DNA of 64,000 nucleotides, from the IMG/VR virus record IMGVR_UViG_3300050014_000899. One strand, given 5' to 3'. The notes under the pieces were generated by a model. That model ran no database searches and was not told the origin of the DNA. It worked only from the letters and a program-made list of their open reading frames with translations. The stretch comes from a virus. The position numbers and the translations under genes are program-made. Every line of letters begins with the position of its first letter. The stretch's first letter is position 1. Below, in pieces: positions 5,338 through 17,168 of the stretch.

Positions 5338-5338
5338 A

Positions 5339-5580: not shown

Positions 5581-5654
5581 GTTCCTTTAGCTCAGCTGGA
5601 AGTAGCGCCACCCCTACATGGTGGATGTCATAGGTTCGATCCCTATAAGGAACA
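5581..5654 (+). tRNA. tRNA-Val(TAC)
   Basis: ccacc-CC TAC AT-ggtgg (C33). Confidence 0.85.
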
Positions 5655-5655
5655 C

Positions 5656-5795
5656 AAACTGTAGTAAAACAGCGAGTTACTTCGTATTCCAAACGACTAG
5701 TCTAGGTGCAAATCCTGGGTCCCCTGCCAAAATTACTTAGGGGATTAGTGTAATAGATAGCACAGTAAAAACACTCAAGTTAAATTTCTCAGTTT
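5656..5795 (+). ncRNA. Y RNA (YrlA)-like RNA 2 containing a circularly permuted tRNA-Trp-like domain
   Basis: scaffold GTAGTAA..GAGTTACTTCG...CTC..TTTCTC; order T arm, GTCCCCT-GCCA-linker-AGGGGAT, D arm. Confidence 0.65.
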
Positions 5796-5957
5796 ACGGG
5801 AATGAAACTATTAGGGGGCGGAACCCTTTTATCCACAGTAGGAATAGTGATAAGGAAGCAGGCCGATCACCTGAGTGAGTTCGATTCTCACCATTTCCAC
5901 TAGTAGACCGTTATAATTTCATAGGACTCACATTGGAGAGTACAGCGTAGAAATTAA

Positions 5958-6031
5958 TGGGACACATGTTCCAAGGCAAGGCGAATGAGTTTTGCAAACT
6001 TGTTGGGAGGTTTCGATTACCTTTGTCTCCA
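5958..6031 (+). tRNA. tRNA-Ala(TGC), atypical D arm
   Basis: tgagt-TT TGC AA-acttg; G3:U70; A73. Confidence 0.65.
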
Positions 6032-6036
6032 CACAC

Positions 6037-6132
6037 TGCGGAAGAGTGAAACGGATAGAGATTTTAATTAATTTCGCTATCATCCAGGGCTCATAACCCT
6101 CGGGATATTGGGTTCGACTCCCATTTCCGCTA
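6037..6132 (+). tRNA. tRNA-fMet(CAT) with insertion in the D loop
   Basis: GGG-CT CAT AA-CCC; 1:72 mismatch; enlarged D loop. Confidence 0.75.
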
Positions 6133-6249
6133 CTAAAAACAAATGGCAGCACAACACCTAAAGGGACGCTTTTAAGGTAGTGGCCGAAGCATCGAAAATC
6201 AGAAATGACCTGCCGATGTAAAAAACGAATCCGGGCGTTTGTTTTATAT

Positions 6250-6336
6250 GCCGTCGTGCCAGAGTGGCCAATCGGGGAGGGCTCATATCCCTTGGCTTTT
6301 ATAGCCCCATAGGTTCGAATCCTATCGACGGTACCA
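6250..6336 (+). tRNA. tRNA(CAT) with long variable arm
   Basis: gaggg-CT CAT AT-ccctt; GGCT-tttat-AGCC arm; ACCA end. Confidence 0.8.
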
Positions 6337-6352
6337 AATTTAATGTATAAAA

Positions 6353-6859
6353 ATGTATTATACAATTTACAAAACTACGAATAAATTTAATGGCAAGTTT
6401 TATATCGGAAAGCATCAGACTCAGAAATTAAATGATAATTATTTAGGGTCTGGAAAAGCTTTGGAACTGGCTATTAAGAAATACGGTAAAGAGAATTTTC
6501 AAAAAAGAATTATTTTTGTTTTTGATAATGAAATTTTAATGAATCAAAAAGAAAAAGAAATTGTTACAGAGAATTTTATATCCAGCAATACAAATTATAA
6601 TTGTGGGGTTGGGGGAGAAGGAGGAGCTCAATTCTTAAATAAATCTCACTCTGAAAAAACTAAAAAATTGCTTGCTGAAAAAGCTAAATTAATAAAGCCC
6701 TCTAAAGAAACTAGAGATAAAATATCAGAGGGTAATAGAAAAAGAACATTATCTAAAGAAACAAGAAATAAACTCTCTCAAAAATCTTTCGAGAGATGGA
6801 AAAAATTGCGGGTTGGAGAAAATAGTCATCTCATTGGGCTCATAACCCAAGGTTGCTAG
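6353..6859 (+). CDS. GIY-YIG (Seg-like) homing endonuclease with NUMOD3 repeats
   Basis: TIYKTTN..GKFYIGKH...YLGSG; HSEKTKK repeats. Confidence 0.85.
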   Translation: MYYTIYKTTNKFNGKFYIGKHQTQKLNDNYLGSGKALELAIKKYGKENFQKRIIFVFDNEILMNQKEKEIVTENFISSNTNYNCGVGGEGGAQFLNKSHSEKTKKLLAEKAKLIKPSKETRDKISEGNRKRTLSKETRNKLSQKSFERWKKLRVGENSHLIGLITQGC

Positions 6860-6882
6860 GGCGGTACTAGTGCCCGCTACCA
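6807..6882 (+). tRNA. tRNA-fMet(CAT)
   Basis: ttggg-CT CAT AA-cccaa; 1:72 mismatch; overlaps 3' end of endonuclease ORF. Confidence 0.8.
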
Positions 6883-6887
6883 ATTAA

Positions 6888-6999
6888 GCTGTAGTAACTG
6901 TAAGAATTACTTCGTTGAGTTCGATTCTCAATTTTCCCGCCAGATTTTAAAGGGAAAATCGCCACAAAGGGTGGCATTATTCTTCTAATTTTTCTCAGC
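6888..6999 (+). ncRNA. Y RNA (YrlA)-like RNA 3
   Basis: GCTGTAGTAA..GAATTACTTCG, T arm, loop-closed acceptor stem, TTTTCTCAGC. Confidence 0.6.
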
Positions 7000-7055
7000 G
7001 AAAATACATGCCGGATGACCCCCGTTGTATCACGGTGCCGGCTCCAATAAGGTCA

Positions 7056-7128
7056 GATCTCGTAGCTCAGTTGGTAGAGCACATCCCTTTTAAGGATGGG
7101 GTCCTGGGTTCGAGCCCCAGCGGGATCA
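7056..7128 (+). tRNA. tRNA-Lys(TTT)
   Basis: catcc-CT TTT AA-ggatg. Confidence 0.93.
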
Positions 7129-7129
7129 C

Positions 7130-7235
7130 AATCGTAGTAATGGAAAGAGTTACTTCGTGCTAATGGTTAGCAAAATCCTGTTAAGATTACTTCGCGGTTC
7201 AATTCCGCCTGTTACCTCTTCCGATTTTCTCGATT
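7130..7235 (+). ncRNA. Y RNA-like RNA 4 carrying D, Asn(GTT) anticodon and T arms
   Basis: same scaffold; TGCTAATGGTTAGCA, aatc-CT GTT AA-gatt, gcgg TTCAATT ccgc. Confidence 0.6.
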
Positions 7236-7237
7236 AT

Positions 7238-7312
7238 GGGAGCTTAGCTCAGTTGGTTCAGAGCATCTGCCTTACAAGCAGAGGGTCGAGGGTTCGAATC
7301 CCCCAGTTCCCA
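7238..7312 (+). tRNA. tRNA-Val(TAC)
   Basis: tctgc-CT TAC AA-gcaga. Confidence 0.93.
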
Positions 7313-7401
7313 CATAACGTATAAAATAATATACGTTAACTAAGAAAAAGGGACTTAATGTATAATATTTTATCCGTTATGACCCGATAATATCCGATAA
7401 T

Positions 7402-7474
7402 GGTCCGGTAGCTCAATGGATAGAGCACCTGCCTTCTAAGCAGGTGGTTGAGAGTTCGAGTCTCTCCCGGATCA
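7402..7474 (+). tRNA. tRNA-Arg(TCT)
   Basis: cctgc-CT TCT AA-gcagg. Confidence 0.93.
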
Positions 7475-7481
7475 CTAATTT

Positions 7482-7556
7482 GGTCTCATAGTACAACGGA
7501 TAGTGCGCGAGTTTCCTAAACTTGAAATCCGGGTTCGATTCCCAGTGAGATCACCA
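7482..7556 (+). tRNA. tRNA-Arg(CCT)
   Basis: cgagt-TT CCT AA-acttg; ACCA end. Confidence 0.9.
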
Positions 7557-7570
7557 AATAATTTATAAAC

Positions 7571-7804
7571 ATGACTCATACTCTTAAGCAAATTGTTAAG
7601 GGTAATACTGCTCGCTTTTCATATGCATGCGAAGGGAAGCTCTATTACACTATTGAAGTAGAAGAATCAGTATATCAAGTAGAATTGGACAGTACCGCCG
7701 ATGAATGGAGGGCAACATATATGACCCCAACTTTTCCTGCCATCACTCTTATGAGATGGATCAGAAAAGGTATGGAAAATGAAAAATTTATTCAGATAAA
7801 GTAG
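7571..7804 (+). CDS. hypothetical phage protein
   Basis: ORF after tRNAs. Confidence 0.65.
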   Translation: MTHTLKQIVKGNTARFSYACEGKLYYTIEVEESVYQVELDSTADEWRATYMTPTFPAITLMRWIRKGMENEKFIQIK

Positions 7805-7825
7805 ACAACTTTAGGATATTTTTCG

Positions 7826-7833
7826 TATATTTG
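7826..7833 (+). promoter_or_regulatory. Bacteroidota RpoD -7 element (TAnnTTTG)
   Basis: TATATTTG; same motif at 17628, 21190, 30283, 40633. Confidence 0.6.
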
Positions 7834-7837
7834 TCCC

Positions 7838-8269
7838 ATGGTAATTCACGAAATATTGAAGGAACATGGGATTTTTAGTAATGACATAAAAGTCAAAATT
7901 AAAAATGGCCAGATTAAATTAAATGGAGAAGTTGTTACGGATCCTTTAATGGATTTGGATATTGAATTCGTGAAGAAGGAGGACCGGCCTACCAAAGAAA
8001 CCCCTGCATTTGAAGATGCTGGAAATTTTCTTTTCAGAGCAATTAGTAAAGACAAAGAATGTTTTGACTTATGTACAGCTATGGGGGTTGATGGATTGGG
8101 TATTCATCCAGAATTTTGGCCAGATTTGAATTTTACCAACAAACTAGTTGAAAAATTTAGAAAGGTTTATGTCTTAAAGATTTCTAAAAAAGAATGGATC
8201 ATACTCCAGAAAAAAGAAGTTGAAATTGAAACGGAAGAATTTTTAATATTGAAGAAAAATGATTGTTAA
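7838..8269 (+). CDS. hypothetical protein, possible S4-like RNA-binding N-terminus
   Basis: IKVKIKNGQIKLNGEVVTD resembles the S4 motif. Confidence 0.45.
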   Translation: MVIHEILKEHGIFSNDIKVKIKNGQIKLNGEVVTDPLMDLDIEFVKKEDRPTKETPAFEDAGNFLFRAISKDKECFDLCTAMGVDGLGIHPEFWPDLNFTNKLVEKFRKVYVLKISKKEWIILQKKEVEIETEEFLILKKNDC

Positions 8270-8492
8270 AAAAAGAACTGATAAGATTGAAGTTGACCTG
8301 ACAGGTCCGCATGGAAATGCTTATGCTCTTTTAGGATTAGCAAGTGATATTTGCAAGAATTTAAATCGTCTTGCAGGAAAAGAATTATATGACTTCAAAG
8401 AAATTGAAAAAGATATGAAGAGTTCTGATTATGAACATCTTTTGGAAGTTTTGGAAGAACACTTTGGTAACTTTATAATATTATACAGATGA
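8259..8492 (+). CDS. hypothetical phage protein
   Basis: DLTGPHGNAYALLG...MKSSDYEHLL. Confidence 0.65.
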   Translation: MIVKKRTDKIEVDLTGPHGNAYALLGLASDICKNLNRLAGKELYDFKEIEKDMKSSDYEHLLEVLEEHFGNFIILYR

Positions 8493-8896
8493 GATTTGCA
8501 AATGATCCAGCGGAGCCAACAACTCCCACGAACCCGAAATTATCTTCGATAGCTTATACATTGTCAAAATTGACTGTATTGGAAGCTAAAGAATTAGCTG
8601 ATATACTTGAAAACGATTTTGGTATCAAGAAAGCTAAAACAGAGTTTAAACCTGCAGGATATGAACCTGTTCCTGAAGTGGAACAAACTGAATTCAATGT
8701 TTACCTCAAAGAAATTGGCAATCAAAAATTGCAGGTTATAAAAAAGGTCCATGAAGTAATGGGATTGGGTCTTAAAGAAGCCAAAGCATTGGTTGATTCT
8801 ACCCCCTGTCTTTTAAAAGAAAAGATTTTAAAAGCTGAAGTAACAACCATAAAAGCCGAATTGGAAAATGTCGGAGCAGTAGTGGAAGTGAGATGA
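8489..8896 (+). CDS. rplL: ribosomal protein bL12 (L7/L12)
   Basis: LTVLEAKELADILE; EQTEFNVYL..KLQVIKKV..GLGLKEAKALVD; LENVGAVVEV. Confidence 0.9.
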   Translation: MRFANDPAEPTTPTNPKLSSIAYTLSKLTVLEAKELADILENDFGIKKAKTEFKPAGYEPVPEVEQTEFNVYLKEIGNQKLQVIKKVHEVMGLGLKEAKALVDSTPCLLKEKILKAEVTTIKAELENVGAVVEVR

Positions 8897-9180
8897 AATT
8901 AAAGAACCTCATATTAGCATTAAAAGATCAAGGTCCGCTTAAAAGAGCTTTTCGAAACTTCTTTATAACTGGAAATGCATGGGGTTTATTTTCCATAAAC
9001 TCTCACATAAGGCAGGATACTCAAAAGCCAAAGGTGACTTATAATACTCAAGAAACAGCTGCTAAATCAGCTATCAGTTTGGGTAAGAAAAATGGGGTTC
9101 ACTTTAGCTATTACAAATGTGCTTACTGTGATGGTTATCATATCGGTAAGAATAGAGACAATAAAACAAATGAAAAATAG
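8893..9180 (+). CDS. hypothetical protein with C-terminal Zn motif
   Basis: YKCAYCDGYHIG. Confidence 0.6.
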   Translation: MKLKNLILALKDQGPLKRAFRNFFITGNAWGLFSINSHIRQDTQKPKVTYNTQETAAKSAISLGKKNGVHFSYYKCAYCDGYHIGKNRDNKTNEK

Positions 9181-9571
9181 AGCAAAAGGTTTTTATTGGG
9201 TTCAATATGCAAATTTATCTTGGGTAGTTTGCGAATGGGATGGTGTCCAATGGCATCACCAAGGGGCAAGTTATCCGGATGAAAGTTTTAAACAGATTCA
9301 TGAGATAAGAATTGAGCCTCCAAAACCCAAAGATGTTAGAAATTCCGATGGTATATGGACTCCAGAATGTTTAATTTTTTAAAATGAGAATAATAATCAC
9401 AGCTGAAGAAGCAATCGATAAAGGAATCTGGGAAGATTTATGCGACATGGTCGGATACAGTTATTATGCAGTTAACGAAGGTATGGACCCTGATACAGAA
9501 ATTTCTTTAACAGAGGATCAAGCAAGACAGCTGGGAGTAATACCTGCAAAAAATAGTATTTCCTGGGACTA

Positions 9572-10206
9572 ATGAAAGCATATCACACAATACAGAAATA
9601 TACCGAGGATCACTATGGAAAGTTTGTATGGGCTTTCGATAAGGTAGATGGATCTAATTTCAGGTAGAGTGGGATAGAAAACTTTCAAAGAAAAGCCAGT
9701 TTACATTTGGATTCAAAAAATTCGGGACAAGAACCGAAATGATAATGAACAACAGAAATCCATTTATTGAAGCTGTTACTTTGTTTGAAATGGAATATGC
9801 TCCAAAATTTGACCAGATTTTTAAAGACGCAAAAGAGCTAAGAGGAGTTCCGATAATTACCTTATTTGGAGAGTTTTATGGTCCAGGTAGCTTTGCAGGT
9901 ATGCACGATTGGAACGCTACCCATAGTTTAACATTTTTCGATGCGGCAATATATAAGAAGGGATACCTTCCTCCATCAGATTTTCAAAATCTATTTGGAG
10001 AACTCCCCATACAAAAACTTATTTGGAAAGGAATTTTCAATGAGGAATTTGTAAAAAGAGTAGAAGCCAATGAATTCGGACTTTCCGAAGGAATAGTTTA
10101 CAAGGGCGTTGAAGACGGAGATGTCTTTATGGGCAAAATCAAAACTCTTCAATGGCTCGAAAGTATAAGAAATAAGTACGGTATCAAAAAAATGCTAGAG
10201 TACTAA
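9572..10206 (+). CDS. ATP-dependent RNA ligase-like nucleotidyltransferase, frameshifted near 9664
   Basis: motif I DKVDGSNFR upstream of the shift; LFGEFYG, FFDA, EGIV, MGKIK downstream. Confidence 0.7.
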
Positions 10207-10393
10207 TGGAAGATTTCAAAAAGAAGCGAAAAGATCTTCGCGATCGAAAAAGAGAAGCAATGAACGAGGAATATAAATCCGCCAAAGAAAGAAAAGGGGT
10301 TGTTAACACATTTAAAAGAGAATCCAGATCCATTAAGAGATCTGAGAAAAATGAAATAAAGAAAGTTCTTCGGAACGATTTTGGAATTTAAAC

Positions 10394-10469
10394 GCGCCGG
10401 TATCACGCCTCGCTACGAACGAGGAGAAGTGTAATTGGACACATGAGGGTTCGAATCCCTTTCGGCGTT
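10394..10469 (+). tRNA. non-canonical tRNA-Arg(ACG) lacking a normal D arm
   Basis: cctcg-CT ACG AA-cgagg directly after the acceptor strand; TAATTGG after the anticodon arm; T arm. Confidence 0.65.
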
Positions 10470-10637
10470 CTAATGGGTAAAGTGTTATACGGTCTGAAGC
10501 CCGGGTTTGGGAAATGAATCATCAGAGTACCTCAGGTCTATAAAATAACACAAGAGGGGAATCTTTTCAGATGATCAATCCTTCAAAGACGCTGAATTTA
10601 TCCAGGTGGGAAGGGTTCGCCCGATTCTCACCAAATT

Positions 10638-10709
10638 GCGGAGGTAGTATAACGGTTAGTATAGGGCCTTGCCAAGGCTCAGATGGGTTTTCGATTAACC
10701 TTCTCCGCA
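10638..10709 (+). tRNA. tRNA-Gly(GCC)
   Basis: gggcc-TT GCC AA-ggctc. Confidence 0.85.
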
Positions 10710-10761
10710 CAAAGTAGCAAAATTGGTAGAGCGCATGTGAATATATATAGAAAATATTCGC

Positions 10762-11568
10762 ATGCTACCAAGAAATAAAAAAAATTGTGAAAAATGCAAT
10801 AAAGAAATAAGTTTGTCTAATTTTAATTTGCATTATTCTTCATGTAAAGGAAATATAGAAGAAACAAAGATAAGAGTAAAAGAAGAATGGAAATTGGTCA
10901 ACGGAAAATACAAATGTCCATATTGTAATAAAGAGTATTCGAAGAATGGAATTTCTACACATATTATAAGAAATCATACCGAAAAAGGAAAAGGGCAAAA
11001 TCCCAATATTGGTTTTTTAAAGGAAACCCAAATTATTTGGAATAAGGGGTTATCAAAGGAAACAAATAAAAGTCTTGAAAATCTTTCAAAAACATTATTA
11101 AAAAAATATAAATCTGGAGAATTAAAATCCGGATTTAAAAATAAAAAACATAATAAAATATCATGTGAAAAAATGTCTAAAAGTGCTATTCTAGCATTTC
11201 AAGAAGGAAGACATTCTGGATGGGTTTCAAGAAAAATACAAAGTTATCCTGAGATATATTTTGAAAAGGTTTTAAAAAGCAAAAAGTTATTTGAAGAATG
11301 TATCCCTGAATATTTTATTAAACATAAAAACAATTCTAATTATTTTTTGGATTTTTATTTTCCAAATAAAAGGATTAATTTAGAAATTGATGGCTCTCAA
11401 CATGAATTGGAAGATCGAAAAATATCTGATAATCAAAGAGATAATTTTTTATCAGAACAAAATATATTTGTTTTTAGAATAAAATGGAGAAACCCAAAAT
11501 CATTAGATGGTAAAAAATATTTGGAGAATAAAATAAAAGAATTTATTGAATTATACAAGCGGAAGTAG
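10762..11568 (+). CDS. homing endonuclease, Zn finger plus DUF559/Vsr-like nuclease
   Basis: KCPYCNKEY..THIIRNH; YFLDFY...LEIDGSQH..DNQRDNFL. Confidence 0.8.
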   Translation: MLPRNKKNCEKCNKEISLSNFNLHYSSCKGNIEETKIRVKEEWKLVNGKYKCPYCNKEYSKNGISTHIIRNHTEKGKGQNPNIGFLKETQIIWNKGLSKETNKSLENLSKTLLKKYKSGELKSGFKNKKHNKISCEKMSKSAILAFQEGRHSGWVSRKIQSYPEIYFEKVLKSKKLFEECIPEYFIKHKNNSNYFLDFYFPNKRINLEIDGSQHELEDRKISDNQRDNFLSEQNIFVFRIKWRNPKSLDGKKYLENKIKEFIELYKRK

Positions 11569-11631
11569 CTCAGTTGGTAGAGCACCGTCCTTCCACGTCG
11601 GGGGTCGCGAGTTCGAACCTCGTCTTCCGCT
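11559..11631 (+). tRNA. tRNA-Gly(TCC)
   Basis: GCGGAAGTAGCTCAGTTGGTAGAGC; loop CT TCC AC. Confidence 0.9.
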
Positions 11632-11638
11632 CAATTTT

Positions 11639-11710
11639 GCCTCTATGGTGTAATGGATAACATGGGTGACTTCGGATCATCTGTTACGGGTTCGAATCCT
11701 GTTAGGGGCA
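11639..11710 (+). tRNA. tRNA-Arg(TCG)
   Basis: ggtga-CT TCG GA-tcatc. Confidence 0.88.
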
Positions 11711-11731
11711 CAACTTTTTTAAACTAAAATA

Positions 11732-12031
11732 ATGAATTATACAAATTATATTTTAAGCGGAAACTCTATCAATATCAATTCTCTCATCTCCAAAAAAAGA
11801 TACTTAAAACCAATAACTATTACAATTGCTATTCCAGTAGCTATAGTAGGATTTCTAGCATTTTCGGGAATATTACCAGCAACCTATATAATAGATCGTG
11901 TTAAAGAAGGAGAAATTAAATATCTTAAAGTTATAAGAAAATATAAAAGAAACAAAGAGTTTCAAGCTTTTTTAGAAACCATTTCAGATGATAAAGAAGA
12001 AATGAAAAGAATCAAAAAAATGTATCATTAA
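11732..12031 (+). CDS. hypothetical membrane protein
   Basis: one hydrophobic segment. Confidence 0.55.
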   Translation: MNYTNYILSGNSININSLISKKRYLKPITITIAIPVAIVGFLAFSGILPATYIIDRVKEGEIKYLKVIRKYKRNKEFQAFLETISDDKEEMKRIKKMYH

Positions 12032-12330
12032 TCATGAAAAAATTATTCGATGGTCATTAGGTAAGAAAGTTACCTAAAATAAGACCATTATGAGAAGAAG
12101 ACATTATTTGAAAACGACTCAAATACTTGAGCACACCACAAATCGTAGAGAATTTAAAATTCTTACCACCGTTGATCAAGATCCATATCCTGAAGAGTAT
12201 GGGTATTACCAAAAGCACAAATGGGGATTCAGAGGATGCAGAAAGTCCAGATTAATCTGGAAACATCAAGTAAGAATGTATCGTACTTGGAAGCATAATA
12301 GAAAAACCCAGTATAAATATAATAAAAACG

Positions 12331-12723
12331 ATGGATATATCCACAATAACGAAGGAACAATTTGATTTAGCTTATAATAAGTTTCAACCAAATGCTTGGG
12401 TCAAATTTGGATTTAAGTACTTTTCTAATAGTACTTTAAAAGAAAATTTCAAAATAAAGAAAACTGTAACTTGGATTCTCGGTGTTCTTTTTGGAATTGG
12501 TTTTTTAGCAACTGTAATTGGATTACCGCACAATGTAATTGCAGTTCCTGTTCTAATATATTCAGGAATTATTGTTATTTTAGCTATTATTATGGGGGGA
12601 TCCGCTCTAATGAATAATCTGAGAATTAAAAAAATTCAGAAAGAATTAGGAGTAAACATTTGGCAATATGAAGCTTTAGTAAATATGTTTTATCCAACCC
12701 CTATCAACCCACTTCAAAATTAA
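12331..12723 (+). CDS. hypothetical membrane protein
   Basis: two hydrophobic segments. Confidence 0.65.
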   Translation: MDISTITKEQFDLAYNKFQPNAWVKFGFKYFSNSTLKENFKIKKTVTWILGVLFGIGFLATVIGLPHNVIAVPVLIYSGIIVILAIIMGGSALMNNLRIKKIQKELGVNIWQYEALVNMFYPTPINPLQN

Positions 12724-13310
12724 TGAATAAATTGAGTCCTTTTCTTCAATACAAGGACATCCTTGAGAAATATTTGTCTCCTAAAACCATTTTTAAATTA
12801 AAGGAGGCTTGGAATGAACCCAGAAGAAGGTATCATAATGAAGATCACTTATATCAGATTTTAAAAGATCTCGAAAAAAGTAAATCAAAAGTATCTTCAG
12901 TTCAATGGGAATCTTTAGTAATAGCCGCTTTCTTTCACGATGCTATTTATGTTCCGGGGAATTCCAATAACGAGGATCAGTCCATTAAAGTTTTCTTAGA
13001 GTCTTTTTTAGGAAAAAGATTTGATATGGTTAAAGCTATTAAAGAAATGATCAAAGCAACTCAATTTAGAGTGGTTCCAGCGGATAAACTAGTTAAGATT
13101 TTTTGGGAAGCAGATAATGCAGGATTCCAGGGACCATTTGAAAGTTTTTTAGAAACCGAGAAGAAGATTAGATTAGAGTTTGGACATGTTTCTTTGCATA
13201 CTTATAAGAAAGGAAGACTAAAGTTTCTCAATTCCTGTTTAGGATTAATGGGGCCAAAAGCAGACGAAAACGTCTCAAAACTAATCGAGTACATAGAAAA
13301 AAATTACTAA
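12723..13310 (+). CDS. HD-domain phosphohydrolase
   Basis: EPRRRYHNEDH...AAFFHDAIY..NEDQS. Confidence 0.8.
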   Translation: MNKLSPFLQYKDILEKYLSPKTIFKLKEAWNEPRRRYHNEDHLYQILKDLEKSKSKVSSVQWESLVIAAFFHDAIYVPGNSNNEDQSIKVFLESFLGKRFDMVKAIKEMIKATQFRVVPADKLVKIFWEADNAGFQGPFESFLETEKKIRLEFGHVSLHTYKKGRLKFLNSCLGLMGPKADENVSKLIEYIEKNY

Positions 13311-13369
13311 TTTTAACGTTTTTTCTTCAAAAATATTTTTTTTCTAAGTAAAATAATTGTACATTTACT

Positions 13370-13813
13370 ATGAAATTAAAAATAAGAGATATGAGAACCA
13401 CAGGCGTTATCGAATTCGAAGGATTTAAATTCAAAAATACAGAATTTCAATTTAAGAACAAGAAAGAGATGAACAGCTTTTTTAATGAGGTTCTTATTGA
13501 TAGTCCTCAGAGATTCATTAATACTTTGGATCGTTGGAATTTGGAAAATATGCACATTGCGTTTTCACAATTTATGCTGATGAAAGTTATTGCTTTTTCA
13601 GGTCTTGGAATGGGATTAGTATCAATACTTGCAAAGCTTCCGTCAATTGTTGGAATTGGTTTCGTAGTAATGGCAGCAGTTAATTATATTGCAAGCAAAA
13701 AAGCCGAAAAAAGACTTGATAACATCAACTACAGCAGAGGAGATTATGAAATGATGGCTGAAGGACTTGATGAAGTTCGTGAAGATTTAATAAAAGAAAA
13801 AAATTCAAAGTAA
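13370..13813 (+). CDS. hypothetical membrane protein
   Basis: two hydrophobic segments. Confidence 0.6.
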   Translation: MKLKIRDMRTTGVIEFEGFKFKNTEFQFKNKKEMNSFFNEVLIDSPQRFINTLDRWNLENMHIAFSQFMLMKVIAFSGLGMGLVSILAKLPSIVGIGFVVMAAVNYIASKKAEKRLDNINYSRGDYEMMAEGLDEVREDLIKEKNSK

Positions 13814-13848
13814 TACAAAACCTAAGCATTTTTACGTATATAAGATAG

Positions 13849-13855
13849 ATATATA
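13849..13855 (+). promoter_or_regulatory. ATATATA promoter-like motif for tRNA operon 2
   Basis: same motif and near-identical spacing to ATG as for leader 1. Confidence 0.55.
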
Positions 13856-13879
13856 AAGAAACAACAAAAAGTTAAAACA

Positions 13880-13957
13880 ATGAAAAGGCAGTCCATACAT
13901 ACGATTAGTATTACCTCATCACACGATAAGGGCGGCCTTTTTATGACTAGACTTTAG
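13880..13957 (+). CDS. leader peptide 2 (MKRQSIHTISITSSHDKGGLFMTRL) of tRNA operon attenuator
   Basis: 11 consecutive Ser/Ile/His/Thr codons before a Ser/His/Thr/Ile-only tRNA operon; GGCCTTTTT (13934-13942) can pair with the terminator 5' arm. Confidence 0.85.
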   Translation: MKRQSIHTISITSSHDKGGLFMTRL

Positions 13958-13982
13958 TACTAAGATATTAAATGATTTATTC

Positions 13983-14015
13983 AAAGGAAGGCTCCAATCA
14001 GTCTTCCTTTTTTTT
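13983..14015 (+). terminator. attenuator terminator of tRNA operon 2
   Basis: AAAGGAAGGCT-ccaatc-AGTCTTCCTTT plus T-run, 5 nt before tRNA-Ser. Confidence 0.85.
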
Positions 14016-14020
14016 GTTTT

Positions 14021-14106
14021 GGAGAGTAGCATTCGATGGTGGATAACAGGTCTCGAAAACCTGGCCGGCGGTTCAAATCCCAAGGGTTCGACTCCTTTAC
14101 CCTCCG
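14021..14106 (+). tRNA. tRNA-Ser(CGA)
   Basis: caggt-CT CGA AA-acctg; long variable arm; G73. Confidence 0.85.
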
Positions 14107-14122
14107 CTAGAAAATAAAATAT

Positions 14123-14212
14123 GGATGGGTACCCAAATTGGTTAAGGGGGCGGTCTTGAAAACCGTTAGGTCGTGTAAACACGGCGCGTGGGTTCGAACC
14201 CCACCTCATCCG
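14123..14212 (+). tRNA. tRNA-Ser(TGA)
   Basis: gcggt-CT TGA AA-accgt; long variable arm. Confidence 0.92.
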
Positions 14213-14215
14213 CAA

Positions 14216-14285
14216 GGGGCGAAACCAACTTCGCAAGTTGGATCTGGATTTAGCTACCAGATAAGCATATGTGTGATGCTGTCCC
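14216..14285 (+). ncRNA. three-hairpin small RNA of unknown type
   Basis: CCAACTT/AAGTTGG, ATCTGG/CCAGAT and AGCAT/ATGCT hairpins closed by GGGGC/GTCCC. Confidence 0.45.
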
Positions 14286-14291
14286 GGTTAT

Positions 14292-14368
14292 GGTGGTATT
14301 AGTGTTAGTGGTAAGCACGAAAGTCTGTGGAACTTTTAGGATGGGTTCGAATCCCATATAACACCCCA
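14292..14368 (+). tRNA. tRNA-His(GTG)
   Basis: aaagt-CT GTG GA-acttt; encoded G-1, C73 and CCA. Confidence 0.88.
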
Positions 14369-14372
14369 TTAT

Positions 14373-14452
14373 GGTAGACGTAGCTTAATTGGTTAAAGGG
14401 CCAGATTGTGGATCTGATGCGATTGAGGGTTCGAATCCCTTCGTCTACCCCA
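14373..14452 (+). tRNA. tRNA-His(GTG)
   Basis: caga-TT GTG GA-tctg; encoded G-1, C73 and CCA. Confidence 0.88.
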
Positions 14453-14453
14453 C

Positions 14454-14526
14454 GCCTCTATAGTATAGTTGGTAATTATAGCTGATTCGTAATCAGCAGA
14501 CTGGGATTCGAATTCCCGTAGAGGCT
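14454..14526 (+). tRNA. tRNA-Thr(CGT)
   Basis: gctga-TT CGT AA-tcagc. Confidence 0.88.
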
Positions 14527-14533
14527 CAATAAT

Positions 14534-14607
14534 GCACCCTTAGCTCAGCTGGTAGAGCACTTGCTTGGTAAGCAAGAGGTTCCCGGATTCGATCTCCGGA
14601 GGGTGCT
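14534..14607 (+). tRNA. tRNA-Thr(GGT)
   Basis: cttgc-TT GGT AA-gcaag. Confidence 0.9.
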
Positions 14608-14688
14608 CAAAAGCATACGTGTATGCGACAATAGTGAAGAGTGGTAATACACCCCGCCGTTAACTTGAGGAGGTCAGGCACTATTTTT

Positions 14689-14773
14689 GGAGGGTTGACC
14701 GAGAGGTAAGGTATCGCTCTGGAAAGGCGAAGTCAGGGTTAAACTTGGGTGGGATCGTTACCCGCATCCTCCG
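14689..14773 (+). tRNA. tRNA-Ser(GGA)
   Basis: tcgct-CT GGA AA-ggcga; long variable arm. Confidence 0.85.
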
Positions 14774-14780
14774 CAAAAAT

Positions 14781-14853
14781 ACTGGTGTGGCGCAATGGTA
14801 AGCGCAGGACCCTTATAAGGTCAAGGTTGGGGGTTCAAGTCCCTTCACCAGTA
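14781..14853 (+). tRNA. tRNA-Ile(TAT)
   Basis: gacc-CT TAT AA-ggtc. Confidence 0.88.
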
Positions 14854-14860
14854 CAAATTT

Positions 14861-14937
14861 CGGCCTGTATACCCTCTGTCTGATAAACAGTTGAAAGGTT
14901 AGCTGGTTGCATAGTGGTTCGACTCCACTCAGGCCGA
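14861..14937 (+). tRNA. non-canonical tRNA-Ile(GAT) lacking a normal D arm
   Basis: CGGCCTG/CAGGCCG acceptor; ctgt-CT GAT AA-acag; TAGCTGG after the anticodon arm; T arm. Confidence 0.65.
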
Positions 14938-14943
14938 CAAAAT

Positions 14944-15016
14944 GGGCGTATCATATAGTTGGTTAGTATACGTGCCTGATAAGCACGACACGGAGGTTCG
15001 AGGCTTCCTATGCCCA
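14944..15016 (+). tRNA. tRNA-Ile(GAT)
   Basis: cgtgc-CT GAT AA-gcacg. Confidence 0.88.
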
Positions 15017-15091
15017 CAAATTCTAGAGGGTTAAGAAATGGGGATAGCAATCTAGCCTGCATTTTTACGGATATATATAATAAATAATATT

Positions 15092-15838
15092 ATGTATAAG
15101 TGTAATCATTGCGATAAAGAATTTGAATTAAAACAACAAAAAACTAATCATGAAAGATGGCATGCCAATCCTAAACACAATGAGATTAAAAAAGAATATT
15201 GTTGTTCGATATGTGGAAAAACATTTACAAATTTTGGATGGAAACAAATTCATGAAAAATATTGTGATGGATCAGGATTAACTAAAAAAGAAAAAATTCT
15301 TAAAAACAGAGAAAATAATAAAGGCAAAACTTTTGATGAAATTTTAGTTCAAAAAGGAACTTATGAAAAGTTTTGTCAAAATGTATCTTTTGGAATGAAA
15401 GAAGCTTTTAAAGAAGGCAAATTTACCGGATCCCCATCTACAGAAGAAGGCAAAAAAAGAAAAAATGAAAAATTAAGACAGAGTACATTAAAAAGATACA
15501 AGGAGGGGTGGGATTCAAAATGTGGAAGAGCTCCTAAATATCATTACGAAAGCAAGATAGCAGGAAAAATAACTGTTGATGGGTCATGGGAATTAAATGT
15601 AGCCAAATATTTAGATAACAATAATTTTAGATGGATTAGAAATACAAAAAGATTTGATTATGTTAATTTAGAAGGAAAACAATCAACATATAAACCGGAT
15701 TTTTATATTTTTAATTGGAGTAGTTATTTAGAAATAAAAGGATTTGAAACAAAACTGGATAAATGTAAATGGGAGCAATTTAAAGAACCCCTAATAATAT
15801 GGAAAAGAAATGATTTAAAAGAATTAAAAATAATTTAA
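15092..15838 (+). CDS. homing endonuclease, C2H2 Zn fingers plus PD-(D/E)XK domain
   Basis: YKCNHCDKEF..HERWH; GSWE...YKPDFY...LEIKG. Confidence 0.8.
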   Translation: MYKCNHCDKEFELKQQKTNHERWHANPKHNEIKKEYCCSICGKTFTNFGWKQIHEKYCDGSGLTKKEKILKNRENNKGKTFDEILVQKGTYEKFCQNVSFGMKEAFKEGKFTGSPSTEEGKKRKNEKLRQSTLKRYKEGWDSKCGRAPKYHYESKIAGKITVDGSWELNVAKYLDNNNFRWIRNTKRFDYVNLEGKQSTYKPDFYIFNWSSYLEIKGFETKLDKCKWEQFKEPLIIWKRNDLKELKII

Positions 15839-15840
15839 AA

Positions 15841-15927
15841 GGAGAGTAAACCGGAAAGGTTTGCCGGAACCGCCTGCTAAGCGTGTTGAGCGTTAATTCG
15901 CTTGGTTTTCGAATATCCTGCTCTCCG
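15841..15927 (+). tRNA. tRNA-Ser(GCT)
   Basis: cgc-CT GCT AA-gcg; long variable arm; G73. Confidence 0.8.
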
Positions 15928-15933
15928 CTCATG

Positions 15934-15973
15934 AAAAAGACCCAATATAATTTTTTTATATGGGTCTTTTTTT
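15934..15973 (+). terminator. intrinsic terminator ending tRNA operon 2
   Basis: AAAAAGACCCA...TGGGTCTTTTTTT. Confidence 0.75.
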
Positions 15974-16002
15974 GTACATTTACAGAGTTAAAAAGTATAT
16001 GT

Positions 16003-16386
16003 ATGAACTTTGAAAGACATCAGGATCCTTTAACCTCAATGAATATTGGGATTACTACTTGGGATAAACTGCAGCAAGGTCAAGTCCTAAAAACTAAAAG
16101 AAGCGTAAAGCTTACCGAAATCCCTGGGGGAGCATGGAAAATAAAAGCTGATGGTAGTGTGTTGGATAATTCTATTGGTAAAGATATGTTCTGCCATCTT
16201 ATTCGTGTAAACCACGTTAGGGTAAAAGACGGAAAAACAAAAATTTTACAAATTGTATTTGCTGAATATTTATGGTTAGACAGTATAGCTAAAGATACTA
16301 AACAATTTACAGCTACAAAAACTTTAATTGGAAATATTGATCAGATCAAAAGTAGATTTGAAATTATTCAAAGAGTAAAAATATGA
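16003..16386 (+). CDS. hypothetical protein, FER..DP...IG N-terminal motif family (start corrected)
   Basis: MNFERHQDPLTSMNIG; the upstream extension in the ORF track overlaps a tRNA and terminator. Confidence 0.7.
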   Translation: MNFERHQDPLTSMNIGITTWDKLQQGQVLKTKRSVKLTEIPGGAWKIKADGSVLDNSIGKDMFCHLIRVNHVRVKDGKTKILQIVFAEYLWLDSIAKDTKQFTATKTLIGNIDQIKSRFEIIQRVKI

Positions 16387-17168
16387 AAAATCATTTTGTC
16401 CGAGGGGGAAATGTCATTAAGAAATTAGGTATAGGAAGATCCATTCTTGATGAACTCATGGAACATAAGGTTGCTAGACCTATGAATGATCCTCGTGAAA
16501 AGCTGGAGGGAGATGAAAAATACAGTCAGAATATTGCTGTTTGGATAAATCCTAGTAATCAAACCTGTTTTAATGCTATGTGGTGTGACTATCAGAATCT
16601 GGAGGATTGGATGAACGGAAAAGGACCGATGGTTAAAGGGGATACAGATGAGGAAAAGAAAAAATATTGGGATTATGCTGTAGCTGAAGCAGAAGACACG
16701 GAACATATGATGTGGTCCATTTTATATCATTGGAAATGGTTTGACCAGTTTACAACAGATTTTGATCCTCATAAACATGCAGCTTCTTTTGGAATAAGTA
16801 ACGTTATAAAAAATCCTCTTAAGCTTAACAAGAAAGACCCCTCGGAAACTATAAAAGCTATGTATGCTCCGTATGTGGATGAAATGGCCAGAGATATGGA
16901 ATATAGGGACTGGGGTAACATTAGAAGAGAAGCTGAAAAAGAATGGTATGGGATTAAAAGAACCCTTTATTGTTTAGGAATTGGTTATATGGGAGCTTGC
17001 AATACCCCAGAGGAGATTGAAAATCTTAATTGGATTGAAGGTATTGTTCTATCTAAAGCATATTATAATGGATTGATTAAATATTCCCCCCATAAATCTC
17101 TTCCTGATTTTGCATGGCTTTCCCAAAAAGAGCAAGATAAATACAAGAAAGATAAGATGGATTTATGA
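16383..17168 (+). CDS. hypothetical protein with related N-terminal motif
   Basis: HFVRGGNVIKKLGIG. Confidence 0.7.
   Translation: MKNHFVRGGNVIKKLGIGRSILDELMEHKVARPMNDPREKLEGDEKYSQNIAVWINPSNQTCFNAMWCDYQNLEDWMNGKGPMVKGDTDEEKKKYWDYAVAEAEDTEHMMWSILYHWKWFDQFTTDFDPHKHAASFGISNVIKNPLKLNKKDPSETIKAMYAPYVDEMARDMEYRDWGNIRREAEKEWYGIKRTLYCLGIGYMGACNTPEEIENLNWIEGIVLSKAYYNGLIKYSPHKSLPDFAWLSQKEQDKYKKDKMDL

What the first reader, a model, noticed from the sequence alone, without database searches (positions are those of the whole stretch)
10394..14937. Shared non-cloverleaf tRNA fold: D-loop motif moved 3' of the anticodon arm
Seen: Arg(ACG) 10394-10469 and Ile(GAT) 14861-14937 both run acceptor - TAT - short strand (CAC / ACC) - anticodon hairpin - GAA - complementary strand (GTG / GGT) - TA(AT/GC)TGG - CAT - T arm - acceptor. 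They have normal length and good anticodon loops but no D arm in the normal place. Each lies in the operon matching its amino acid, and Arg(ACG) is the direct cognate of the leader's CGT. Inference: a rearranged but L-shaped tRNA class that tRNA finders and perhaps host tRNases miss.
Basis: partly seen in the sequence, partly recalled or inferred. Interest (0 to 1): 0.72.

Follow-up and report, generated by a model that had tools for sequence, protein, structure and literature searches.

The report
Rewired non-cloverleaf phage tRNAs (Arg, Ile)
Two genes that tRNA finders miss in this giant phage's tRNA cluster are very probably working arginine and isoleucine tRNAs with their inner parts joined in a different order, which conflicts with the textbook view that bacterial-type tRNAs are always cloverleaves.

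Summary
Both elements (10394-10469, anticodon ACG; 14861-14937, anticodon GAT) have perfect acceptor, anticodon and T arms. Neither has a D hairpin. A 3-nt strand before the anticodon arm is complementary to a 3-nt strand after it, and a D-loop-like TA(A/G)..TGG follows.

ARAGORN misses both, and Rfam tRNA scores them 29.1 and 24.1 bits against a cut-off of 29.

They are not isolated oddities. Pattern and covariance-model searches found at least 118 distinct relatives in IMG/VR phage contigs, and unannotated or mislabelled copies in cultured Streptomyces and Microbacterium phages. Relatives are sporadic in bacterial genomes.

- **Fold:** the 3-bp enclosing helix covaries heavily, with 16 strand combinations. 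Among close relatives, 47 changes are compensatory and 6 are disruptive. The rival local hairpin is not conserved.
- **Charging:** the base after GG is A in 77/77 Arg members, which matches the main ArgRS determinant A20. It is T in 33/34 Ile members.
- **Role:** in this window and in a complete 349-kb phage, the rewired ACG is the only Arg(ACG) tRNA found.

I read them as functional tRNAs with an internally permuted D/anticodon domain. Expression, charging and the L-shape remain untested. This scan has found the same family before on other DNA, and I found no paper describing it.

The parts
10394..10469 (+). Rewired tRNA-Arg(ACG) gene, 76 nt, no encoded CCA
   Evidence: Sequence read. It scores 79.1 bits on model R1 and 29.1 bits on Rfam tRNA. 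Near-identical copies with different flanks lie in three IMG/VR contigs.
10394..10400 (+). Acceptor stem, 5' strand (pairs with 10462-10468; discriminator T at 10469)
   Evidence: All 7 positions pair, two of them as G-T. L004 shows compensatory G6-C67 to T-A. Across the family 98.2% of cells pair and all 7 pairs change on both sides.
10401..10403 (+). T8 A9 T linker
   Evidence: T8 and A9 are invariant, including in members that the pattern did not force.
10404..10406 (+). CAC, 5' strand of the 3-bp helix that encloses the anticodon arm (geometric equivalent of D-stem positions 23-25)
   Evidence: It pairs with GTG at 10429-10431. The closest relative, L007, has CGC/GCG and is 96% identical elsewhere.
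10408..10424 (+). Anticodon arm with a 5-bp stem and loop CTACGAA; anticodon ACG at 10415-10417
   Evidence: Rfam places it at the anticodon arm of RF00005. The stem covaries in orthologues while the loop stays fixed.
10425..10428 (+). A-GAA joiner on the 3' side of the internal loop (positions 44-47 in the permutation reading)
   Evidence: GAA is conserved, though partly forced by the pattern. Unforced members have GAT, GTA or ATA here.
10429..10431 (+). GTG, 3' strand of the enclosing helix (equivalent of D-stem positions 10-12)
   Evidence: Covariation.
10432..10444 (+). D-loop-like segment T-AATTGG-A, then CACAT up to the T stem
   Evidence: TA(A/G) and GG are invariant although the generic pattern did not force TA(A/G). 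The A after GG is present in 77/77 Arg members.
10445..10461 (+). T arm GAGGG-TTCGAAT-CCCTT
   Evidence: The stem has 5 bp. Across the family 99% of cells pair and 4 of 5 pairs change on both sides.
14861..14937 (+). Rewired tRNA-Ile(GAT) gene, 77 nt, no encoded CCA
   Evidence: Sequence read. It scores 83.1 bits on R1 and 24.1 bits on Rfam tRNA. A near-identical copy is in L086, on the same IMG/VR contig as L003.
14871..14873 (+). ACC, 5' strand of the enclosing helix
   Evidence: It pairs with GGT at 14897-14899. ACC/GGT is the commonest combination in the family, in 26 of 118 members.
14875..14891 (+). Anticodon arm TCTGT-CTGATAA-ACAGT (T-T at 27:43, then 4 bp); anticodon GAT at 14882-14884
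   Evidence: Rfam alignment. T:T at this position occurs in 67 of 118 members.
14892..14896 (+). T-GAA-A joiner
14897..14899 (+). GGT, 3' strand of the enclosing helix
14900..14912 (+). D-loop-like segment T-AGCTGG-T, then TGCAT
   Evidence: The T after GG is present in 33/34 Ile members.
14913..14936 (+). T arm AGTGG-TTCGACT-CCACT and acceptor 3' strand CAGGCCG; discriminator A at 14937
   Evidence: Both stems pair perfectly. The discriminator is A in 34/34 Ile members.

Best explanation
Both loci are genes for functional elongator tRNAs, Arg(ACG, presumably read as ICG) and Ile(GAU). They belong to a large, mostly phage-borne class whose core is wired differently from the cloverleaf.

**What is kept.** The acceptor stem, T arm and anticodon arm are standard.

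**What differs.**
- The D stem is not a hairpin. It forms between a strand just after U8-A9 and a strand just after the anticodon arm, so it encloses the anticodon arm.
- Its 3' strand runs straight into a normal D-loop sequence: A14, R15, Y, Y, G18, G19, then A20 or U20.
- That segment then joins the T stem through ..AU48.
- Formally, segment 10-47 is circularly permuted, with new ends at 21/22.
- The three new joins (9 to 22, 44-47 to 10, 21 to 48) connect residues that already touch in the canonical L.
- The stack of anticodon stem, 26:44 layer and D stem keeps its 10 layers.

**Inferred life cycle.** The genes are transcribed with the neighbouring tRNAs. The transcript is trimmed by RNase P and 3' nucleases and given CCA. 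It is then charged by host ArgRS or IleRS through the anticodon plus A20 (Arg) or A73 (Ile), and used on the ribosome.

**Shown versus inferred.** Shown here are family membership, the pairing pattern, conservation of the tertiary-core bases, class-specific identity bases and gap-filling in tRNA sets. Inferred are expression, charging, decoding, the L-shape and the duplication-and-trim origin of the permutation.
For: **Stems and the enclosing helix.**
- On 118 distinct sequences, 94.1% of cells pair against 59.9 +/- 0.7% in shuffles, and 35-49% when the partners are slid.
- Helix pair 11:39 pairs in 82/82 rows that have letters on both sides (CG 46, AU 27, GC 8, UA 1).
- In the corrected register, 91/118 have 3 of 3 pairs and 27/118 have 2 of 3. 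There are 16 strand combinations.
- Among relatives at least 80% identical elsewhere, 47 helix differences are double and keep the pair, against 6 one-sided losses. One example is the window's Arg (CAC/GTG) versus L007 (CGC/GCG).
- The alternative local hairpin pairs in only 36% of cells.

**Family membership.**
- Model R1 gives 83.1 and 79.1 bits for the two loci. The next window hit is 26.3, and canonical tRNAs score 24 or less.
- Sequences not used to build R1 score highly: Microbacterium phage Zooman 85.4, Streptomyces phage Mildred21 82.3, and members that lack the forced motifs.

**Identity elements.**
- The base after GG is A in 77/77 Arg members and T in 33/34 Ile members. The discriminator is A in 34/34 Ile members.
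- A20 is the main ArgRS determinant and is unique to tRNA-Arg (PMC9976931).

**Core bases.** T8, A9, the T-A-R after the 3' strand, GG and the A-T before the T stem are conserved, also where the pattern did not force them.

**Gap-filling.**
- The window has canonical Arg TCT, CCT and TCG, and no ACG other than this gene.
- The complete 349-kb phage G159 has the same set, with the rewired ACG 10 nt after Arg(TCG).
- Mildred21 has one canonical Arg (CCT) plus rewired TCT, TCG and ACG.

**Array context.** The Ile gene sits in phase in the array, with 6-7-nt spacers that start CAA like its neighbours.

**Codon demand.** CGT is the commonest CGN codon in the window's ORFs, and ATT+ATC make up 70% of Ile codons.
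Against: - There is no expression, processing, charging or decoding data for any member.
- A 3-bp helix across an asymmetric internal loop is weak. Single-sequence folding does not find it, and RNAalifold on the MAFFT alignment does not predict it.
- 27/118 members have only two standard pairs.
- The Ile copy looks redundant, because a good canonical Ile(GAT) lies 6 nt downstream.
- Most family sequences were collected with patterns that fix TAT, GAA, TGG, CAT and TTCGA. Conservation of those motifs is therefore partly by construction.
- R1 was trained on the two window sequences.
- Shuffle controls ignore relatedness.
- The 3D argument rests on textbook tRNA geometry and not on a model.
Confidence: 0.8

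Rival explanations
1. They are conserved tRNA-like RNAs that are not used for decoding. Possible roles are decoys that soak up host anticodon nucleases or other tRNA-directed defence enzymes, ligands of a phage Ro-type RNA-binding protein, or regulators of the tRNA array.
For: - Canonical copies with the same anticodon lie next to rewired ones: Ile(GAT) in the window and Arg(acg) in Zooman.
- Phage tRNA regions and one bacterial island that carry them also encode RNA ligase, polynucleotide kinase, a CCA-adding enzyme and, in Mildred21, a Ro-like protein.
- Nothing here shows charging.
Against: - Synthetase identity bases track the anticodon class: A20 in 77/77 Arg members, A73 in 34/34 Ile members.
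- In three genomes the rewired genes supply Arg isoacceptors that have no canonical copy.
- Length, termini and spacing match those of ordinary tRNA genes.
- RNA-repair genes are common in big-phage tRNA regions in any case.
Confidence: 0.12
2. They are D-arm-less tRNAs with a hairpin in an enlarged variable region, which is the minimum-free-energy fold of the Arg gene (GTGT/ACAC). The strands that flank the anticodon arm do not pair.
For: ViennaRNA predicts this hairpin for 10394-10469. RNAalifold does not call the long-range helix.
Against: - The hairpin pairs in only 36% of cells across the family and shows almost no compensatory change.
- It is broken in L007, L009, L011 and L017, and cannot form at all in the Ile gene.
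- The flanking strands covary instead.
Confidence: 0.03
3. They are decaying tRNA pseudogenes or recombination scars in a tRNA array that is riddled with homing endonuclease genes.
For: The window does hold degenerate tRNA-like pieces (3691-3746, 4789-4864, 5958-6031) and GIY-YIG, NUMOD3 and PD-(D/E)XK ORFs between tRNAs.
Against: - The same architecture recurs in at least 118 distinct sequences from unrelated contigs and in cultured actinophages.
- All four helices are maintained by compensatory change, and the anticodon loops stay intact.
Confidence: 0.02
4. The conserved GAA is the anticodon, so these are odd tRNA-Phe genes. One member is annotated that way in GenBank.
For: Mildred21 91367-91442 is annotated tRNA-Phe(gaa).
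Against: - No stem flanks the GAA.
- GAA is replaced by GAT, GTA or ATA in unforced members.
- The hairpin upstream has the 5-bp stem, 7-nt loop, U33 and R37 signature of an anticodon arm, and Rfam aligns it as such.
- The triplet in that hairpin loop predicts the identity bases elsewhere in the molecule.
Confidence: 0.01

Closest known systems
Canonical bacterial and phage class I tRNA-Arg(ACG) and tRNA-Ile(GAU) (Rfam RF00005), such as the window's own Arg(TCG) 11639-11711 and Ile(GAT) 14944-15017
   Same: - 7-bp acceptor stem with a discriminator
- 5-bp T stem with a TTCGA-type loop
- 5-bp, 7-nt anticodon arm with U33 and R37
- D-loop consensus with GG, then A20 (Arg) or U20 (Ile)
- U8 and A14
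- 76-77 nt in length
- placement and spacing in tRNA arrays
   Different: - There is no D hairpin between positions 9 and 26.
- The D stem is built from two strands on either side of the anticodon arm.
- The D-loop sequence lies 3' of the anticodon arm, where the variable loop would be.
- Scores fall at or below the Rfam cut-off, and ARAGORN does not see the genes.
D-arm-lacking mitochondrial tRNAs of animals (tRNA-Ser(AGY) and nematode or mite tRNAs; PMC4013460, PMC4394434 listed)
   Same: There is no D hairpin. The anticodon helix is effectively extended towards the core.
   Different: - The mitochondrial tRNAs are truncated (about 55-65 nt), have lost the D-loop/T-loop GG contact, and need adapted partner proteins.
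- The phage tRNAs are full length, keep every core motif, and have only changed the order of the parts.
Circularly permuted tRNA genes of Cyanidioschyzon merolae and some other algae and archaea (from my own knowledge: Soma et al. 2007)
   Same: The parts of a tRNA appear in a permuted order in the gene.
   Different: - In those genes the whole gene is permuted at the acceptor ends. Processing through a circular intermediate restores a normal cloverleaf.
- Here the acceptor ends are normal and only the inner D/anticodon domain is permuted, so the mature RNA itself would be non-cloverleaf.
allo-tRNAs and other non-standard bacterial or phage tRNAs with 8/4 or 9/3 acceptor/T stems (from my own knowledge: Mukai et al. 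2017; PMC7590224 listed)
   Same: They are non-canonical tRNAs found by sequence mining in bacteria and phages, and standard finders partly miss them.
   Different: allo-tRNAs keep the cloverleaf order of arms and change only stem lengths. The class here keeps the stem lengths and changes the connectivity.

Membership tests
tRNA (Rfam RF00005, cloverleaf) | 7-bp acceptor stem closing the molecule, with a discriminator base | tested here: met
   All 7 positions pair in both loci. Across the family 98.2% of cells pair.
tRNA (Rfam RF00005, cloverleaf) | T arm with a 5-bp stem and a 7-nt TPsiC-type loop | tested here: met
   The arms are GAGGG-TTCGAAT-CCCTT and AGTGG-TTCGACT-CCACT.
tRNA (Rfam RF00005, cloverleaf) | Anticodon arm with a 5-bp stem and a 7-nt loop carrying U33 and a purine at 37 | tested here: met
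   The loops are CTACGAA and CTGATAA, and Rfam aligns them to the model's anticodon arm. The Ile stem has T-T at 27:43.
tRNA (Rfam RF00005, cloverleaf) | D arm: a hairpin between positions 10 and 25, 5' of the anticodon arm | tested here: not met
   Only 4 nt stand where the model has 15 positions, and the model has to insert 17-18 nt in the variable region.
tRNA (Rfam RF00005, cloverleaf) | Score at or above the curated gathering threshold (29 bits) | tested here: inconclusive
   The Arg gene scores 29.1 bits, just over the threshold. The Ile gene scores 24.1 bits, below it.
tRNA (functional definition) | Aminoacylated and used in decoding | not testable with these tools
   Only indirect evidence is available: identity bases and gap-filling in tRNA sets.
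   The window has CAC/GTG and ACC/GGT. The family shows 16 combinations and 47 compensatory against 6 disruptive near-neighbour changes.
   The window has TAATTGG..CAT and TAGCTGG..CAT. TA(A/G) is invariant although it was not forced.
   The two loci score 83.1 and 79.1 bits, against 26.3 or less for everything else in the window. Both were in the training set. Independent members score 82-85 bits.
D-arm-lacking mitochondrial-type tRNA | Truncated molecule (about 55-65 nt) with the D arm replaced by a short loop and no D-loop/T-loop GG motif | tested here: not met
   The genes are 76-77 nt and keep the GG motif and the T loop. ARAGORN in mitochondrial modes finds nothing.
Permuted tRNA gene (whole-gene circular permutation) | 3' half encoded upstream of the 5' half, so acceptor strands are adjacent in the middle of the gene | tested here: not met
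   The acceptor strands lie at the two ends of the gene as usual.

The most novel reading that the evidence does not exclude
The rewiring is adaptive. It would leave ArgRS, IleRS, EF-Tu, RNase P and the ribosome satisfied, while making these Arg and Ile tRNAs unrecognisable to an enzyme that reads the D arm or core of ordinary tRNAs. That enzyme could be a host tRNA-directed defence nuclease or modifier, or the phage's own host-tRNA shut-off. Phages, and a few bacterial RNA-repair islands, would then carry them as attack-proof spares. Bacterial translation would naturally use tRNAs that are not cloverleaves.
Probability: 0.2. Interest if true: 0.92.

Novelty: new variant of a known kind. Interest (0 to 1): 0.8.

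Why it matters
**Textbook view.** The cloverleaf is treated as universal outside animal mitochondria. [quoted passage not shown] A widespread natural class of full-length tRNAs with a permuted core, working with bacterial synthetases and ribosomes, would contradict that statement.

**Structural and practical consequences.**
- It would show that the L-shape can be reached by another chain topology.
- It would offer ready-made scaffolds for orthogonal tRNA design.

**Annotation consequences.** Phage tRNA complements are systematically under-counted or mislabelled. In Mildred21, two members are unannotated, one is 'tRNA-OTHER' and one is called tRNA-Phe(gaa). This skews analyses of phage codon usage and tRNA function.

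**Testability.** Members sit in cultured phages of harmless Streptomyces and Microbacterium hosts, so the question can be tested directly.

Tried and rejected
1. **Canonical cloverleaf.** I tried to read a canonical cloverleaf or an intron-containing tRNA into either locus. None fits. The length is already that of a mature tRNA, and Rfam needs a D-arm deletion plus a 17-18-nt insertion.
2. **Local GTGT/ACAC hairpin** (the MFE fold). Rejected by family counts: 36% of cells pair.
3. **GAA as a Phe anticodon**, prompted by the GenBank label in Mildred21. Rejected.
4. **ARAGORN in mitochondrial, D-armless and relaxed modes.** It finds nothing.
5. **Protein-anchored search for syntenic loci** (ORF 10762-11568). 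It gave only two weak, unhelpful hits.
6. **Megablast-style search of the 5-kb region against INPHARED.** It matched only ordinary tRNAs.
7. **An exact 30-mer of the Ile gene.** It found nothing in IMG/VR. The generic pattern did find relatives.
8. **RNAalifold on the MAFFT alignment.** It recovers the three standard stems and neither candidate for the fourth. In that alignment 36 rows are shifted by one column in the 3' strand.
9. **Clade-wide bacterial gene?** The rewired Ile(TAT) of Ohtaekwangia and three Cytophagales-like MAGs shares a syntenic WYL-domain gene. A sample of 151 genomes of the order gave only the query genome and one weak case. It is therefore sporadic, and probably island- or prophage-borne.
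10. **Recent anticodon switching.** The closest Arg-Ile pairs are only 77% identical, so the data show no recent anticodon switch.
11. **Literature.** Four searches found no description. The library is open-access only, so this is not proof of absence.
12. **The 102-nt tRNA-like RNA at 5339-5440.** No homologue was found.

Full report
**What is in the window.** The window is an A+T-rich (about 34% G+C) stretch of an uncultured large phage.
- No whole genome is held for it, and it has no close relative in INPHARED.
- ARAGORN finds 26 tRNA genes between 2934 and 15017, all on the + strand. Small ORFs lie between them, several of which resemble homing endonucleases (GIY-YIG, NUMOD3, PD-(D/E)XK, DUF559).
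- Neither 10394-10469 nor 14861-14937 is in ARAGORN's list. ARAGORN also misses them in mitochondrial, D-armless and relaxed modes.

- The 7-bp acceptor stems are perfect in Ile and have two G-T pairs in Arg.
- The T arms are perfect, with TTCGA-type loops.
- The anticodon arms have 5-bp stems and 7-nt loops, CTACGAA and CTGATAA. The Ile stem has T-T at 27:43.
- Between the acceptor and the anticodon arm stand only TAT plus four bases. No D hairpin is there.
- After the anticodon arm come N-GAA-(A), a 3-nt strand complementary to the 3 nt that precede the anticodon arm (CAC/GTG; ACC/GGT), then TAATTGG or TAGCTGG, a few bases ending in CAT, and the T arm.
- Rfam's tRNA model sees the same thing. 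It aligns the acceptor, anticodon and T arms, deletes the D arm (4 nt for 15 model positions) and inserts 17-18 nt in the variable region. The scores are 29.1 bits (Arg, just over the gathering score of 29) and 24.1 bits (Ile, under it).
- Single-sequence folding gives no cloverleaf. For Arg it prefers a local GTGT/ACAC hairpin.

**They belong to a large family.**
- An exact 31-mer from the Arg gene occurs in three IMG/VR contigs with unrelated flanks. One of them has a compensatory G-C to T-A change in the acceptor stem.
- An Arg-specific spaced pattern found 13 tRNA-like loci, 9 of them distinct, among 22 hits.
Of 139 matches, 132 have pairing acceptor, T and anticodon stems, which gives 118 distinct sequences.
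- Their anticodons are Arg (ACG, TCT, TCG, CCT, GCG), Ile (GAT, TAT), CAT and one Val (TAC).
- A looser descriptor of my own does not fix GAA, CAT or the anticodon. It found 98 distinct hits in 1.59 Mb of held loci and none in reversed or complement-only controls, with the same narrow set of anticodons.
- A covariance model built on the 118 sequences (R1) scores the two window loci 83.1 and 79.1 bits. The next window hit is 26.3, and canonical tRNAs score 24 or below. The two loci were in the training set.
- Independent support comes from 155 hits in the fetched loci. These include members in which TAT, GAA or CAT is replaced (TAA, TAC, TAG; GAT, GTA, ATA; GAT, AAT) while the pairing is kept.

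**The fold.**
- On the MAFFT alignment, 94.1% of cells in the proposed structure pair. Shuffles give 59.9 +/- 0.7%, and sliding the 3' partners gives 35-49%.
- All three pairs of the enclosing helix change on both sides. Pair 11:39 pairs in 82/82 informative rows with four pair types.
- MAFFT shifts 36 rows by one column in the 3' strand. In the corrected register, 91/118 have three pairs and 27/118 have two pairs plus a C-A next to the internal loop. There are 16 different strand combinations.
- To reduce the effect of shared ancestry, I compared only sequences at least 80% identical outside the helix. Helix positions that differ are changed on both sides with the pair kept 47 times, and changed on one side with the pair lost 6 times.
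- The clearest case is the window's own Arg gene (CAC/GTG) against L007 (CGC/GCG), which is 96% identical elsewhere.
- The local hairpin preferred by energy minimisation pairs in only 36% of cells, shows essentially no compensatory change, and cannot form in the Ile gene.
- RNAalifold on the same alignment predicts the three standard stems and neither fourth helix. A 3-bp helix across a 1 x 4-5 internal loop is too weak for an energy model, so its support is comparative only.

**How I read the architecture (inference).** The 3' strand of the helix runs into T-A-R-Y-Y-G-G-N, which is the canonical 13-14-15-16-17-18-19-20 sequence.
- T8 and A9 precede the 5' strand.
- One base (26) and one base (44) face each other between the helix and the anticodon stem. 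This is G:A in the Arg gene, the commonest canonical 26:44 combination.
- A-T precedes the T stem, which is the place of U48, the partner of A15.
- T8, A9, T-A-R and GG are invariant even where no pattern forced them.
- The helix pair next to the anticodon arm is C (5' strand) with G (3' strand) in 100/118 members. In this reading it corresponds to the conserved G10:C25.
- The simplest description is an internal circular permutation of segment 10-47, with new ends at 21/22. The chain order becomes 8-9, 22-25, 26, anticodon arm, 44-47 (N-GAA), 10-13, D loop 14-21, 48, T arm.
- From textbook tRNA structure, the three new joins connect residues that already touch through the 9-12-23, 45-10-25 and 8-14-21 / 15-48 interactions. 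The stack of anticodon stem, 26:44 layer and four D-stem layers is unchanged.
- A partial tandem duplication of the D and anticodon arms followed by trimming would produce this order. None of this was modelled in 3D.

**Evidence that they are charged and used.**
- The base after GG is A in 77/77 members with Arg anticodons and T in 33/34 with Ile anticodons. The discriminator is A in 34/34 Ile members and varies in Arg members (G 40, A 21, T 16).
- A20 in the D loop is the main determinant for bacterial ArgRS and is unique to tRNA-Arg (PMC9976931). The relocated GG-N segment therefore behaves as a D loop, and the Arg members look selected for ArgRS.
- The rewired genes complete tRNA sets. In this window the canonical Arg tRNAs are TCT, CCT and TCG, and the only ACG is the rewired gene.
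- The complete 349-kb phage G159 has exactly the same arrangement, with the rewired ACG 10 nt after Arg(TCG).
- Streptomyces phage Mildred21 has one canonical Arg (CCT) and rewired TCT, TCG and ACG.
- In the window's longer ORFs, CGT is the commonest CGN codon (13% of Arg codons; CGT+CGC+CGA 26%). ATT+ATC are 70% of Ile codons.
- The Ile gene is in phase in its array. The spacers on both sides are 6-7 nt and begin CAA, as between the neighbouring canonical tRNAs.

**Points against or open.**
- The Ile gene duplicates the anticodon of a good canonical tRNA 6 nt downstream.
- Nothing shows transcription, processing or charging.
- Much of the family was gathered with motif-constrained patterns.

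**Distribution.**
- BLAST of the Ile gene finds 46 INPHARED records. These are mostly ~131-kb Streptomyces phages, plus Microbacterium phages, a crAss-like record and an uncultured one. 'None' is annotated under the listed matches. The Arg gene finds Microbacterium phage Zooman.
- In Zooman the rewired Arg(ACG) lies unannotated between annotated tRNA-Arg(acg) and tRNA-Arg(ccg).
- In Mildred21, two of the four members are unannotated, one is 'tRNA-OTHER' and one is labelled tRNA-Phe(gaa). That label was evidently read from the conserved GAA.
- A stricter pattern over one genome for each of 185,579 prokaryote species gave only 25 hits, of which 24 are structurally valid. Nearly all lie on MAG contigs with phage-like tRNA arrays.
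- Two isolate genomes carry one each. In Achromobacter anxifer it is Arg(CCG) inside a 14-tRNA array. In Ohtaekwangia koreensis it is Ile(TAT) in an island with a WYL regulator, four ordinary tRNAs, an HD/P-loop kinase and an RNA ligase.
- Of 151 genomes sampled from that order, only the query genome and one weak case matched. In bacteria the class is therefore sporadic.

- The 'leader' is the 34-codon ORF 2702-2806. It does contain CGT, at codon 4, next to AGG and AGA codons.
- The ORF 13880-13957 ahead of the Ser/His/Thr/Ile cluster has ATT twice and ATA once.
- I did not evaluate the attenuator idea. The Arg gene is 7.6 kb from the first ORF, with many ORFs between them.

**Prior knowledge.**
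- Four full-text searches found no description of such tRNAs.
- A 2024 NAR paper states that all known bacterial tRNAs are cloverleaves (PMC11551756).
- Earlier agents of this scan reported the same Arg/Ile class, and a related Tyr class, on other DNA. My analysis was done independently and agrees with them on the Arg/Ile class. I did not examine the Tyr class.

**Verdict.**
- These are new members of an apparently undescribed, mostly phage-borne variant of tRNA.
- I put about 0.95 on 'real conserved genes with this pairing' and about 0.8 on 'functional, charged tRNAs'.
- I put about 0.2 on the bolder idea that the rewiring serves to escape a tRNA-directed enzyme.

Noticed in passing
window 5339-5440 (+): This is a 102-nt tRNA-like RNA, 1 nt after the TCA tRNA. 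It has a perfect 7-bp acceptor stem and T arm, a 6-bp hairpin with a 9-nt loop where the D arm should be, and a long second arm whose inner hairpin has the loop CTAAGAC (AAG?). ARAGORN and Rfam both miss it. The fold z-score is -2.2. No homologue was found in five related contigs or by one IMG/VR pattern scan. It remains unexplained.
   Followed up: partly
window 3870-4019 (+): Rfam tRNA scores 49.2 bits over 150 nt. This is a tRNA body with an insert of about 78 nt in the anticodon region, which ARAGORN does not call. Another note of this scan covers it.
   Followed up: no
window 3691-3746, 4789-4864, 5958-6031 (+): These are three degenerate tRNA-like pieces.
- One is an acceptor/T-arm minihelix without D or anticodon arms.
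- One is a weak Asn(GTT)-like tRNA with its D loop in the normal place (Rfam 25.4 bits, R1 26.3 bits).
- One is a 28-bit Rfam tRNA match.

ARAGORN calls none of them.
   Followed up: partly
window 5262-5337 (+): This tRNA has anticodon TCA. ARAGORN calls it 'SeC', and Rfam scores it as an ordinary tRNA at 54.9 bits. It may be a UGA suppressor or a sign of recoding.
   Followed up: no
window 2702-2806 and 13880-13957 (+): Short ORFs lie ahead of the two tRNA blocks. The second is followed by a terminator-like hairpin at 13983-14010, just before the first tRNA of its block. They use codons that the downstream tRNAs read, including CGT and ATT. The attenuator idea was not evaluated here.
   Followed up: partly
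window 107-17168 (+), ORFs between the tRNAs: Several ORFs resemble homing endonucleases: weak GIY-YIG, NUMOD3, PD-(D/E)XK and DUF559 matches, some with zinc fingers. Examples are 1512-2063, 4087-4806, 6353-6859 and 10762-11568.
   Followed up: no
L183 (Streptomyces phage Mildred21, NC_042008.1 66000-104000): GenBank annotation of the rewired tRNAs in Mildred21:
- 91367-91442 (Arg TCG) is labelled tRNA-Phe(gaa).
- 86379-86453 (Arg TCT) is labelled tRNA-OTHER.
- 73703-73779 (Ile GAT) and 94857-94933 (Arg ACG) are unannotated.

The same region encodes a tRNA nucleotidyltransferase, a Ro-like RNA-binding protein, an RNA ligase, a polynucleotide kinase and a tmRNA.
   Followed up: yes
L168 (Ohtaekwangia koreensis DSM 25262, NZ_FUZU01000001.1), 511-6201: This bacterial island holds:
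- a WYL-WCX-PhyH protein
- tRNA-Asn
- a rewired Ile(TAT) at 3358-3433
- tRNA-Lys, tRNA-Pro and tRNA-His
- an HD + AAA_33 kinase/phosphatase-like protein
- an RNA ligase (PF09414)

The WYL gene and the rewired tRNA are syntenic in three Cytophagales-like MAGs (L151, L152, L156). It looks like a set of spare tRNAs plus an RNA-repair module.
   Followed up: partly
L198/L199 (IMG/VR 3300014494_000005, 349 kb, 238000-270000): This complete jumbo phage has 31 ARAGORN tRNAs. They include Leu(AAG), Gly(ACC) and a CTA-anticodon tRNA that ARAGORN calls 'Pyl', which may be an amber suppressor.
   Followed up: no
all held loci: The rewired layout was found only with Arg and Ile anticodons, CAT (Met or Ile2) and one Val. 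All of these are clients of class Ia synthetases. The loci were chosen through Arg/Ile-type patterns, so the restriction needs an unbiased census.
   Followed up: partly
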